From: Escherichia coli
GTDB lineage: Bacteria > Pseudomonadota > Gammaproteobacteria > Enterobacterales > Enterobacteriaceae
Reading direction: 5' to 3' (one strand)
DNA length: 64,000 bases
Assembly: GCF_009931435.1 (NCBI RefSeq)
Contig: NZ_CP043414.1
How positions within the stretch are numbered: the first letter of the stretch is position 1; every line of letters starts with the position of its first letter. A program made the position numbers. This document shows positions 1 through 3,000 of the stretch, piece by piece.

Positions 1-3000
1 GATTAACTGGGGCAAATGGTTTCTGATTGGCATCGGGATGCTGGTTTCGGCGTTCATCCTGCTGGTGCCGATGATTTACATCTTCGTGCAGGCATTCAGC
101 AAAGGGCTGATGCCGGTGTTACAGAATCTTGCTGACCCGGACATGCTGCACGCTATTTGGCTGACGGTGATGATCGCGCTGATTGCCGTCCCGGTAAACC
201 TGGTGTTCGGGATTCTGCTGGCGTGGCTGGTGACGCGCTTTAACTTCCCCGGACGCCAGTTATTGCTGACGCTGCTGGACATTCCGTTTGCCGTGTCGCC
301 GGTGGTTGCCGGTCTGGTCTATCTGCTGTTCTACGGCTCTAATGGCCCGCTCGGCGGCTGGCTGGATGAACATAATCTGCAAATTATGTTCTCCTGGCCG
401 GGAATGGTGCTGGTCACCATCTTCGTGACCTGTCCGTTTGTGGTGCGCGAGCTGGTGCCAGTGATGTTAAGCCAGGGCAGCCAGGAAGACGAAGCGGCGA
501 TTTTGCTTGGCGCGTCTGGCTGGCAGATGTTCCGCCGCGTCACGCTGCCGAACATCCGCTGGGCGCTGCTTTATGGCGTGGTGCTGACCAACGCCCGCGC
601 GATTGGCGAGTTTGGCGCGGTGTCGGTGGTTTCCGGCTCGATTCGCGGTGAAACACTTTCGCTGCCGTTACAGATTGAATTGCTGGAGCAGGACTACAAC
701 ACCGTCGGCTCCTTTACCGCCGCGGCGCTGTTGACGCTGATGGCGATTATCACCCTGTTTTTAAAGAGTATGTTGCAGTGGCGCCTGGAGAATCAGGAAA
801 AACGCGCGCAACAGGAGGAACATCATGAGCATTGAGATTGCCAATATTAAGAAGTCGTTTGGTCGCACCCAGGTGCTGAACGATATCTCACTGGATATTC
901 CTTCTGGTCAGATGGTCGCGTTGCTGGGGCCGTCCGGTTCCGGGAAAACCACGCTGCTGCGGATTATCGCCGGGCTGGAGCATCAAACCAGCGGGCATAT
1001 TCGTTTCCACGGCACCGACGTCAGCCGCCTGCATGCACGCGATCGCAAAGTCGGTTTTGTGTTCCAGCACTATGCGCTGTTCCGCCATATGACGGTATTC
1101 GACAATATCGCCTTCGGCCTGACGGTGCTGTCGCGTCGCGAGCGCCCGAATGCCGCAGCCATCAAAGCGAAAGTGACAAAATTGCTGGAAATGGTGCAGC
1201 TTGCGCATCTGGCGGATCGTTATCCGGCCCAGCTTTCCGGCGGGCAGAAACAGCGTGTGGCACTGGCGCGCGCGCTGGCTGTGGAACCGCAAATTCTGCT
1301 GCTTGATGAACCGTTTGGTGCGCTGGATGCGCAGGTGCGTAAAGAGCTGCGTCGCTGGCTGCGTCAACTCCATGAAGAGCTGAAATTCACCAGCGTGTTC
1401 GTGACCCATGACCAGGAAGAAGCGATGGAAGTCGCCAACCGCGTGGTGGTCATGAGCCAGGGCAATATCGAACAGGCCGATGAACCGGATCAGGTTTGGC
1501 GCGAGCCGGCGACCCGTTTTGTGCTGGAGTTTATGGGCGAAGTGAACCGCTTGCAGGGAACGATTCGCGGTGGGCAGTTCCACGTTGGTGCGCACCGCTG
1601 GCCGCTGGGATACACCCCTGCGTATCAGGGGCCGGTGGATCTCTTCCTGCGCCCGTGGGAAGTGGATATCAGCCGCCGCACAAGCCTCGATTCGCCGCTG
1701 CCGGTGCAGGTGCTGGAAGCCAGCCCGAAAGGTCACTACACCCAATTAGTCGTGCAGCCGCTGGGGTGGTATGAAGATCCGCTCACCGTAGTAATGCGTG
1801 GTGATGATGCGCCGGTGCGCGGCGATCGTTTGTTCGTCGGGCTACAACATGCTCGACTGTATAACGGCGACGAGCGTATTGAAACACGCGATGAGGAACT
1901 TGCTCTCGCACAAAGCGCCTGATAGGTTGAGTTAATGTTAAACGCCCGGAGGCGCTTCCCGCGATCCGGGCTTTTTAATGGCAAGGTTTTGTAACCTGTA
2001 GGCCTGATAAGACGCGTAAACGTCGCATCAGGCAACACCACGTATGGACAGAGATCGTGAGTACATTAGAACAAACAATAGGCAATACGCCTCTGGTGAA
2101 ATTACAACGAATGGGGCCGGATAACGGCAGTGAAGTGTGGTTAAAGCTGGAAGGCAATAATCCGGCCGGTTCGGTGAAAGATCGTGCGGCGCTTTCGATG
2201 ATCGTCGAGGCGGAAAAGCGCGGGGAAATTAAACCGGGTGATGTGTTAATCGAAGCCACCAGTGGTAACACCGGGATTGCGCTGGCAATGATTGCCGCGC
2301 TAAAAGGCTATCGCATGAAATTGCTGATGCCCGATAACATGAGCCAGGAGCGTCGCGCGGCGATGCGTGCCTACGGTGCGGAGCTGATTCTGGTCACCAA
2401 AGAGCAGGGCATGGAAGGTGCGCGCGATCTGGCGCTGGAGATGGCGAATCGTGGCGAAGGCAAGCTGCTCGATCAGTTTAATAATCCCGATAATCCTTAT
2501 GCGCATTACACCACCACCGGGCCGGAAATCTGGCAGCAAACCGGCGGTCGCATTACCCATTTTGTCTCCAGCATGGGGACGACCGGTACGATTACCGGCG
2601 TGTCGCGCTTTATGCGCGAGCAATCCAAACTGGTGACCATTGTTGGTCTGCAGCCGGAAGAGGGCAGCAGCATTCCCGGCATTCGTCGCTGGCCTGAGGA
2701 ATATCTGCCAGGCATCTTCAACGCTTCGCTGGTGGATGAGGTGCTGGATATTCATCAGCGTGATGCGGAAAACACCATGCGCGAACTGGCAGTGCGGGAA
2801 GGGATTTTCTGCGGTGTAAGTTCCGGTGGCGCGGTTGCCGGAGCACTGCGGGTGGCAAAAGCCAACCCCGGCGCTGTAGTGGTGGCGATCATCTGCGATC
2901 GCGGCGATCGCTACCTTTCTACCGGGGTGTTTGGGGAAGAGCACTTTAGTCAGGGGGCGGGGATTTAAGATTATTGTGCAGGCACCGTTTTATCCGTCTG

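What the first reader, a model, noticed from the sequence alone, without database searches (positions are those of the whole stretch)
2966..2973. cysM and yfeK stop codons only 2 bp apart; no gene where K-12 is recalled to carry yfeS
Convergent cysM (+) and yfeK (-) terminate within 8 nt (taa-ga-tta), leaving no room for terminators or for the yfeS gene that I recall lying between yfeK and cysM in K-12. Either this lineage lacks yfeS or my recollection of K-12 gene order is imperfect. The same tight convergent packing occurs at fryA/ypdC (2 bp), cscR/cscA (7 bp) and ypeB/yfeH (overlapping stops), implying transcription must terminate inside the opposing gene.
Basis: partly seen in the sequence, partly recalled or inferred. 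Interest (0 to 1): 0.3.

Follow-up and report, generated by a model that had tools for sequence, protein, structure and literature searches.

The report
Empty yfeS insertion site, cysM/yfeK junction
The two genes cysM and yfeK really do end two bases apart here because this strain, like about three quarters of E. coli, never received the small accessory gene yfeS that K-12 carries at that spot, so this is ordinary strain-to-strain variation.

Summary
cysM (2057..2968, +) and yfeK (2971..3339, -) end 2 bp apart (TAA-GA-TTA), and there is no yfeS anywhere in the window. MG1655 has yfeK-yfeS-188 bp REP spacer-cysM, a segment of about 965 bp that replaces 4-7 bp of the window.

K-12 is the minority state. 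yfeS is in 1,387 of 5,426 complete E. coli genomes. The contiguous tight junction is in 4,038. Together these make up all 5,425 genomes that matched. The same junction occurs in UTI89, Nissle and O157:H7, and in Pseudocitrobacter faecalis. Other Enterobacteriaceae have gaps of -12, 1, 31, 32 or 57 bp without yfeS.

yfeS looks like imported cargo. It has 39% GC against 56% for cysM. It is 95.9% identical between K-12 and a Pseudocitrobacter MAG, whose flanking genes are only 69-93% identical. E. albertii, C. sedlakii and S. electus carry unrelated inserts at the same site. Every insert rewrites the YfeK C-terminus.

The other three tight convergent pairs are confirmed, and two are identical in K-12. 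Tight or overlapping convergent pairs are a known, common feature. There is no intrinsic terminator at the junction. Termination inside the opposing gene, by Rho or by polymerase collision, is inferred and not shown.

Verdict: real, already known in kind, low interest.

The parts
2057..2968 (+). cysM (cysteine synthase B), last gene of the cysPUWAM operon. Stop TAA at 2966-2968.
   Evidence: ORF list. 99.7% aa identity to the PGAP-annotated cysM of strain 2020CK-00188.
2969..2970 (.). The whole cysM-yfeK intergenic spacer: 2 bp (GA).
   Evidence: Sequence read directly. Same junction TAAGATTATTG(C/T)GCAGGCACC in UTI89, O157:H7, VG35A2 and the GTDB E. coli representative.
2971..3339 (-). yfeK, 122 aa, DUF5329 protein with a signal-peptide-like N-terminus. 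It ends ...KTVPAQ*, against ...KTVPAEGN* (124 aa) in K-12.
2969..2977 (.). Unoccupied insertion site. K-12 carries about 962-969 bp here (yfeS, 735 bp, plus a 188-bp REP-containing spacer and a new yfeK 3' end), bounded by an 8-bp direct repeat GGATTAAT.
   Evidence: blastn breakpoints: window 2973 and 2978 correspond to K-12 reverse-complement positions 3335 and 4298. Junction alignments.
3373..3400 (-). SigmaE-type promoter motif GAAACTT-N16-TCAAA upstream of yfeK. It would drive transcription head-on toward the cysM 3' end.
   Evidence: Single match in the window, 0.03 expected by chance. yfeK(S) is reported as a sigmaE-dependent unit in K-12 (PMC2685091, PMC11502571, PMC3326320). Promoter activity in this strain is inferred.
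2973..3006 (+). 11-bp-stem hairpin (two G-U pairs, 12-nt loop) made from yfeK's last codons. No U-tract follows on either strand. Probably incidental.
   Evidence: Fold. Not exceptional: 37% (+) and 66% (-) of 120-nt blocks in the window contain a 40-mer that folds at least as well.
12748..12751 (.). ypeB (+) and yfeH (-) stop codons share the palindrome TTAA (4-bp overlap).
   Evidence: Identical geometry in K-12.
38707..38708 (.). 2-bp spacer between the fryA (+) and ypdC (-) stops.
   Evidence: Identical in K-12.
62966..62972 (.). 7-bp spacer between the cscR (+) and cscA (-) stops.
   Evidence: Same in 2020CK-00188.

Best explanation
The 2-bp cysM/yfeK junction is the unoccupied and most likely ancestral state of a small variable site in Escherichia. 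It is not a lineage-specific oddity or a deletion scar.

In K-12 and about a quarter of E. coli, a low-GC cassette of about 965 bp has been inserted exactly at the stop-to-stop junction. The cassette carries yfeS (a WGR-domain protein of unknown function) and a REP element. Because there is no spare intergenic DNA, the insertion also replaced the last codons of yfeK (PAQ* became PAEGN*). It placed yfeS 32 bp downstream of yfeK, behind yfeK's sigmaE promoter. The window's lineage simply never acquired the cassette.

Consequence for expression (inferred). The cysPUWAM transcript and the sigmaE-driven yfeK transcript each run past their stop codon straight into the antisense strand of the other gene. 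No intrinsic terminator is available. The untranslated, C-rich read-through RNA is then most likely ended by Rho within the first one to a few hundred nucleotides, possibly helped by head-on polymerase collisions. The two mRNAs would therefore have complementary 3' ends.

Shown: the anatomy, the population frequencies, the comparative states and the HGT signature. Inferred: the polarity of the event (insertion rather than loss) and the termination mechanism.
For: - K-12 annotation: yfeK-yfeS-188 bp-cysM. Breakpoints.
- yfeS is in 1,387 of 5,426 genomes. The contiguous junction is in 4,038 of 5,426. The sum, 5,425, equals all genomes that matched.
- The junction sequence is identical in B2 (UTI89, Nissle), O157:H7 and other strains, and in the divergent lineage of the window.
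- Relatives without yfeS: P. faecalis gap 2 with the same PAQ* end, UBA5654 gap 1, Escherichia sp. E1V33 overlap 12, C. amalonaticus 31, Superficieibacter 32, Entomohabitans 57.
- Unrelated cargo sits at the same site in E. albertii (1,819 bp, 35% GC, two ORFs), C. sedlakii (3,819 bp, two ORFs) and S. electus (516 bp). Each comes with a different new YfeK C-terminus.
- yfeS is 39% GC, against cysM 56%, pdxK 52% and yfeK 46%.
- yfeS is 95.9% identical between K-12 and a Pseudocitrobacter MAG. The flanks are less similar: cysM 89.6%, yfeK 85.5%, cysA 92.8%, crr 90%, pdxK 68.6%.
- A YfeS homologue (70% aa) lies on an E. coli plasmid, and full-length homologues of about 40% identity are found in Fusobacterium.
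- A deletion between K-12's GGATTAAT repeats would give TAA-GGA-TTA with YfeK ending PAEGN*. That is not the observed TAA-GA-TTA with PAQ*.
- Termination: direct reading and folding show no hairpin followed by a U-tract at the junction. RNA downstream of the yfeK stop has C/G 1.7-1.9, in the top 5-10% of the window. RNA downstream of the cysM stop has C/G 1.0-1.6.
- SigmaE motif. K-12 yfeKS sigmaE operon (PMC2685091, PMC11502571).
Against: - Polarity rests on parsimony and composition. No rooted phylogeny of the 5,426 genomes was made.
- The Pseudocitrobacter cys region is unusually close to Escherichia: its cysM/cysA identity to K-12 equals E. albertii's. P. faecalis may therefore not be a fully independent outgroup.
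- The K-12 and BL21-type yfeS alleles differ by 2.7%, so the polymorphism is old and losses in some lineages cannot be excluded.
- The 8-bp direct repeat flanking the K-12 cassette could in principle mediate deletion.
- No transcript 3'-end data exist for a tight-junction strain, so the Rho/collision step is untested.
- C-richness of antisense RNA is generic.
Confidence: 0.85

Rival explanations
1. Lineage-specific loss. yfeS was ancestral at this locus and was deleted in the window's lineage and in most E. coli, for example by slippage between the GGATTAAT direct repeats that flank the K-12 segment.
For: An 8-bp direct repeat GGATTAAT bounds the K-12-specific segment, and the same repeat bounds the Pseudocitrobacter MAG copy. 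yfeS alleles within E. coli differ by up to 2.7%, so yfeS is not a very recent arrival.
Against: The predicted repeat-mediated deletion product (TAA-GGA-TTA, YfeK ...PAEGN*) is not what is found (TAA-GA-TTA...PAQ*). The tight junction is sequence-identical across distant phylogroups and a divergent Escherichia lineage, which would need the same imprecise deletion many times. No yfeS is present in E. albertii, E1V33, Citrobacter, Superficieibacter or UBA5654. yfeS has low GC and is more similar between genera than its flanks are.
Confidence: 0.07
2. The junction carries a functional terminator embedded in coding sequence. The 11-bp inverted repeat formed by yfeK's codons IAQT and PAQ* (2973-3006) would act as the pausing hairpin of a collision-type bidirectional terminator, or as a 3' stabiliser for cysM mRNA. 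That would substitute for the REP that follows cysM in K-12.
For: The hairpin lies 5 nt after the cysM stop and ends at the yfeK stop. In most E. coli and in P. faecalis it is 10 of 11 Watson-Crick pairs (-16 to -19 kcal/mol on the cysM strand), and the window's only substitution keeps a G-U pair on that strand. Non-canonical hairpin-dependent bidirectional terminators between convergent genes are described in bioRxiv 10.1101/2022.10.23.513370. The fryA/ypdC junction has an exceptional hairpin just inside ypdC.
Against: In this window the hairpin is no more stable than the best 40-mer in 37% (+) or 66% (-) of random 120-nt blocks. No U-tract follows on either strand. It is absent in E1V33, UBA5654 and Superficieibacter. 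Both arms are coding, so protein constraint explains their conservation.
Confidence: 0.12
3. Artefact or mis-recollection. Either the junction is an assembly or annotation artefact, or K-12 does not really have yfeS between yfeK and cysM.
For: None found.
Against: The same junction is in 4,038 complete genomes. MG1655 is annotated with yfeS b2420 between yfeK and cysM.
Confidence: 0.01

Closest known systems
E. coli K-12 MG1655 yfeK-yfeS-cysM locus (b2419-b2421)
   Same: Flanking genes, their order and orientation, and the sigmaE-type promoter motif upstream of yfeK are the same. DNA identity is 93.6% on the cys side and 97.2% on the yfeK-ptsI side.
   Different: K-12 has an extra segment of about 965 bp (yfeS plus a REP-containing 188-bp spacer) and a 124-aa YfeK ending PAEGN*. 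The window has a 2-bp spacer and a 122-aa YfeK ending PAQ*.
Majority E. coli arrangement (for example UTI89, Nissle 1917, O157:H7) and Pseudocitrobacter faecalis
   Same: Identical stop-GA-stop geometry and YfeK C-terminus. The junction sequence differs from the window by one synonymous base.
   Different: Only overall divergence: the window is about 92-95% identical to these strains around the junction.
Tail-to-tail (convergent) overlapping or abutting gene pairs in bacteria
   Same: Stop codons abut or overlap, so there is no intergenic terminator. This is common: 75 convergent overlapping pairs in the E. coli reference genome (PMC4161906). Three more examples lie in this window.
   Different: Nothing distinctive. 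This pair is 2 bp short of overlapping.
Bidirectional terminators between convergent genes (SEnd-seq; Ju et al. 2019 as cited in bioRxiv 10.1101/2022.10.23.513370)
   Same: A convergent pair whose transcripts must overlap at their 3' ends. A hairpin-forming inverted repeat lies at the junction.
   Different: The hairpin is not above background here, and no transcript-end data are available. Membership is not established.

Membership tests
yfeS (WGR domain, PF05406) cassette at the yfeK/cysM site | An ORF of about 244 aa with an N-terminal WGR domain between yfeK and cysM | tested here: not met
   K-12 YfeS matches Pfam WGR at E 6e-18. There is no tblastn hit in the window better than E = 2.3, and only 2 bp lie between the stops.
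Abutting or overlapping convergent gene pair | Two intact, conserved CDS on opposite strands whose stop codons are a few bp or less apart | tested here: met
   cysM 2057..2968 (+) and yfeK 2971..3339 (-). Both are full length and 99% identical to PGAP-annotated proteins, and both have family support.
Intrinsic (Rho-independent) terminator | GC-rich hairpin immediately followed by a U-tract, downstream of either stop codon | tested here: not met
   The consensus scan gave no site near 2900-3100. That scan is weak, because it also missed the obvious pdxK/crr hairpin with T-run at about 4299-4330. Direct reading and folding show that the hairpin at 2973-3006 is followed by UAACGCAUGUAAAAAAGG on + and by AAUCUUAAAUCCCC on -.
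REP/BIME 3'-UTR element (as downstream of cysM in K-12) | REP palindromic unit in the cysM-yfeK interval | tested here: not met
   The REP part of the K-12 spacer matches only other REPs in the window (1993-2034, 26356-26408, 29256-29345), not the junction.
Collision-type bidirectional terminator | Pausing hairpin in the overlap region that stands out from background | tested here: inconclusive
   A hairpin is present, but 37-66% of control blocks match or beat it.
Collision-type bidirectional terminator | Overlapping, uniform 3' ends of both transcripts, independent of Rho | not testable with these tools
   This needs SEnd-seq or Term-seq in a tight-junction strain.
Rho-dependent termination of untranslated read-through | C-rich, G-poor, untranslated RNA downstream of the stop codon | tested here: met
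   C/G is 1.7-1.9 in the first 90 nt and at +105 to +180 after the yfeK stop. It is 1.0-1.6 after the cysM stop. The window median is 1.00 and the 95th percentile 1.77. This composition is generic for antisense RNA.
Rho-dependent termination of untranslated read-through | Read-through increases when Rho is inhibited | not testable with these tools
   This needs bicyclomycin RNA-seq.
Repeat-mediated deletion scar | The junction equals the product of recombination between the GGATTAAT repeats of the occupied allele | tested here: not met
   Predicted: TAAGGATTAATTTCCTTCCGC. Observed: TAAGATTATTGTGC.

The most novel reading that the evidence does not exclude
The cysM/yfeK stop-to-stop junction may be a genuine recurrent integration hotspot across Enterobacteriaceae. 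At least four unrelated low-GC cargos (yfeS, the E. albertii two-gene insert, the C. sedlakii two-gene insert, the S. electus 516-bp insert) land at the same nucleotide-scale position. Each overwrites the YfeK C-terminus, and yfeS is exchanged between genera. On this reading a specific capture mechanism would be at work, for example the short ATTAATCC-like duplication, or recombination seeded by the highly conserved cysM 3' end, rather than mere tolerance of insertions between convergent genes. In addition, the coding-embedded hairpins at such junctions, especially the exceptional one inside ypdC, would serve as collision terminators.
Probability: 0.12. Interest if true: 0.35.

Novelty: already known. 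Interest (0 to 1): 0.1.

Why it matters
It matters little beyond housekeeping. It shows that K-12 is the atypical reference at this locus. yfeS is an accessory, horizontally exchanged gene found in about 26% of complete E. coli genomes, so phenotypes assigned to yfeS in K-12 screens (for example boric-acid sensitivity, PMC11502571) do not generalise to most E. coli.

It also gives a clean natural pair of alleles for anyone studying how convergent transcripts terminate. One allele has a REP-containing 188-bp spacer after cysM, and the other has a 2-bp spacer. In the second, cysPUWAM transcription meets a stress-induced (sigmaE) gene head-on.

Tried and rejected
1. I considered the hairpin at 2973-3006 as an embedded terminator. 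The inverted repeat is neat in most E. coli. A window-wide 40-nt folding scan showed it is not above background here, and it has no U-tract. I demoted it to a low-confidence rival.

2. I tested deletion between the GGATTAAT repeats. The predicted product does not match the observed junction.

3. The consensus terminator scan found nothing at the junction. It also missed the textbook pdxK/crr bidirectional hairpin, so I did not rely on it.

4. I scanned YfeS and the E. albertii and C. sedlakii cargo proteins against PADLOC and found no hits. Pfam gave only WGR for YfeS, a sub-threshold DKNYY hit and TPR repeats. There is no evidence that the site is a defence island.

5. I did not use the large protein-database searches, structure prediction or the metagenome scan. 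The verdict did not depend on YfeS's biochemical function.

6. I did not build a phylogroup-resolved tree of yfeS presence. The tools return only counts and sampled rows.

Full report
**Observation**

Window positions 2966-2973 read TAAGATTA. This is the TAA stop of cysM (2057..2968, + strand, 303 aa), two bases GA, and TTA, the reverse complement of the stop of a 122-aa ORF on the minus strand (2971..3339). That ORF is YfeK (Pfam DUF5329, E 1.8e-31). The whole 64-kb window is collinear and 98-99% identical with E. coli strain 2020CK-00188. NCBI's pipeline annotates the same genes with the same 2-bp gap in that strain.

I mapped that strain's proteins onto the window.
- cysM/yfeK, gap 2 bp
- ypeB/yfeH, 4-bp overlap (TTAA, 12748-12751)
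- fryA/ypdC, gap 2 bp (38707-38708)
- cscR/cscA, gap 7 bp (62966-62972)

The other nine convergent pairs I mapped have 42-140 bp spacers. Several of these spacers visibly contain hairpin-plus-T-run sequences or REP elements.

**Comparison with K-12**

MG1655 is annotated yfeK (b2419, 124 aa), then yfeS 32 bp later (b2420, 244 aa, WGR domain PF05406), then 188 bp, then the cysM stop.

Local alignment puts the breakpoints at window 2973 and 2978. About 962-969 bp of K-12 replace 4-7 bp of the window. The K-12-specific segment is bounded by an 8-bp direct repeat GGATTAAT. It contains REP sequence, since it matches the REPs at window 1993-2034, 26356-26408 and 29256-29345. It also supplies a different YfeK C-terminus...PAEGN* instead of ...PAQ*. 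No yfeS-like sequence exists anywhere in the window.

**Which state is typical**

yfeS DNA is found in 1,387 of 5,426 complete E. coli genomes. A 201-bp query spanning the tight junction matches contiguously in 4,038 genomes. The two counts sum to 5,425, which is every genome that matched. K-12 is therefore in the 26% minority.

Tight-junction genomes include UTI89, Nissle 1917 and O157:H7. Their junction (TAAGATTATTGCGCAGGCACC) differs from the window by one synonymous base.

**Polarity of the difference**

A scan of one genome per species with YfeK as query returned 22 loci. The junction states are as follows:

| Genome | State at the yfeK/cysM junction |
|---|---|
| GTDB E. coli representative | gap 2 bp |
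| Pseudocitrobacter faecalis | gap 2 bp, same PAQ* end |
| Enterobacteriaceae MAG UBA5654 | gap 1 bp |
| Escherichia sp. E1V33 | 12-bp overlap |
| Citrobacter amalonaticus | gap 31 bp |
| Superficieibacter sp. | gap 32 bp |
| Entomohabitans | gap 57 bp |
| E. albertii | 1,819-bp insert, 35% GC, two ORFs of 280 and 175 aa |
| C. sedlakii | 3,819-bp insert, two ORFs of 628 and 654 aa |
| S. electus | 516-bp insert |
| Pseudocitrobacter MAG | yfeS |

None of the uninterrupted loci has yfeS. The inserts share no similarity with one another or with the K-12 segment beyond the cysM end. Each comes with its own new YfeK C-terminus: VELKNK*, TLN*, PDEDK*, PAEGN*. That is what is expected when DNA is inserted into a site with no spare intergenic bases.

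yfeS is 39% GC, against 56% for cysM. It is 95.9% identical between K-12 and the Pseudocitrobacter MAG, although the flanking genes are only 68.6-92.8% identical. A 70%-identical homologue sits on an E. coli plasmid, and homologues of about 40% identity occur in Fusobacterium.

Recombination between K-12's GGATTAAT repeats would give TAA-GGA-TTA with PAEGN*, which is not the observed junction. Together these results make insertion of an exchanged accessory cassette into an ancestrally tight junction the best reading, and loss in the window's lineage unlikely.

Three caveats apply. I built no rooted tree. The Pseudocitrobacter cys region is unusually close to Escherichia, so it is not a fully independent outgroup. 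The two E. coli yfeS allele classes differ by 2.7%, so the polymorphism is old.

**Expression consequences (inferred)**

In K-12, yfeK and yfeS are reported as a sigmaE-dependent operon (PMC2685091, PMC11502571, PMC3326320). The motif GAAACTT-N16-TCAAA is present once in the window, at 3400 to 3373 on the minus strand, where 0.03 matches are expected by chance.

So sigmaE-driven yfeK transcription and cysPUWAM transcription converge with two bases between the stops. There is no hairpin followed by a U-tract on either strand. The consensus scan was also negative, but it missed the obvious pdxK/crr terminator, so I give it little weight.

An 11-bp-stem hairpin forms from yfeK's last codons (2973-3006). 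It is cleaner in most E. coli and in P. faecalis. However, a 40-nt folding scan of the whole window shows that 37% (+) and 66% (-) of 120-nt blocks do at least as well, so I treat it as incidental.

RNA continuing past the yfeK stop is C-rich and G-poor (C/G 1.7-1.9, top 5-10% of the window). RNA past the cysM stop is moderately so (C/G 1.0-1.6). The default expectation is Rho-dependent termination of the untranslated read-through inside the opposing gene. Head-on polymerase collisions may contribute, as proposed for convergent pairs (bioRxiv 10.1101/2022.10.23.513370). This step is inference, because no 3'-end data are available for a tight-junction strain.

**How unusual is tight convergent packing**

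It is not unusual. The E. coli reference genome has 75 convergent pairs that overlap outright (PMC4161906) among about 704 convergent pairs. Of those 704, 207 carry a REP, and 306 bidirectional terminators have been identified between convergent genes (bioRxiv 10.64898/2026.03.23.713779). The ypeB/yfeH and fryA/ypdC junctions are identical in K-12.

**Verdict**

The only correction is that K-12, not this lineage, is the exception. The feature is ordinary accessory-gene presence/absence at a site between convergent genes. It is already known in kind and of low interest.

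Noticed in passing
window 38734-38767: A 14-bp-stem hairpin (TCTCCCGGCGTCAG / CTGACGCCGGAAGA, 6-nt loop) lies inside the 3' end of ypdC, 26 nt past the fryA stop. It gives the most stable 40-nt fold of the four tight junctions examined, and among the most stable in the window (-24 to -27.5 kcal/mol; only 0.2% of 120-nt blocks match it). It is conserved in K-12. No U-tract follows. It is a candidate coding-embedded pause or termination hairpin for the fryA/ypdC convergent pair.
   Followed up: partly
window 1-8000 (whole window for the relative): The window is only about 94% identical to most E. 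coli across cysM-pdxK (93.6% to K-12 on the cys side, 97.2% on the yfeK-ptsI side). It is 98-99% identical to strains 2020CK-00188 and 2013C-4282, and 96.7% to Escherichia sp. MOD1-EC7003. It therefore comes from a divergent Escherichia lineage that RefSeq labels E. coli (19 of 5,427 records fall in the 95-99% band). The lineage was not identified further.
   Followed up: partly
window 13747-13984 and 15009-17246: There are gene-content differences from K-12. The LysR regulator yfeR (b2409), which lies between yfeN and yfeH in K-12, is absent: only 238 bp separate yfeH and the ompK/yfeN homologue. Two extra genes, a nucleoside permease and a nucleoside 2-deoxyribosyltransferase, lie between the ompK/yfeN homologue and xapA. 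K-12's IS186C between nupC and pdeA is also absent.
   Followed up: partly
L006 (E. coli O157:H7 YB14-1) 702-1069: yfeK is annotated as frameshifted in this O157:H7 strain. The difference is one T fewer in the run CCTTTTTTAC near the 3' end.
   Followed up: no
L011 4376-6194 (E. albertii); L017 4364-8182 (C. sedlakii); L018 4376-4891 (S. electus): Unrelated inserts occupy the same yfeK/cysM site in other species. E. albertii has two uncharacterised ORFs (280 and 175 aa, 35% GC, weak DKNYY hit), with a hairpin (GGGGCAG...CTGCCCC) right after the new yfeK stop. C. sedlakii has two ORFs of 628 and 654 aa, one with TPR repeats. There are no PADLOC hits.
   Followed up: partly
L013 4408-5139 vs L001 3750-4484: yfeS is 95.9% identical between E. 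coli K-12 and an uncultured Pseudocitrobacter MAG, while the flanks are 69-93% identical. This indicates inter-genus transfer of the cassette into the same site. Pseudocitrobacter cysM and cysA are as close to E. coli as E. albertii's are.
   Followed up: partly
L024 (Escherichia sp. MOD1-EC7003) contig end at 4111: The contig of the window's second-closest relative breaks inside yfeK (after codon 37). This may mean a repeat or IS at or near the junction in that genome.
   Followed up: no
window 4295-4336: The pdxK/crr convergent pair has a textbook bidirectional terminator (AAAAAAATGGCGCCGATGGGCGCCATTTTTCT) in a 42-bp spacer. The consensus terminator scan did not report it, which shows that scan's limited sensitivity.
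   Followed up: no
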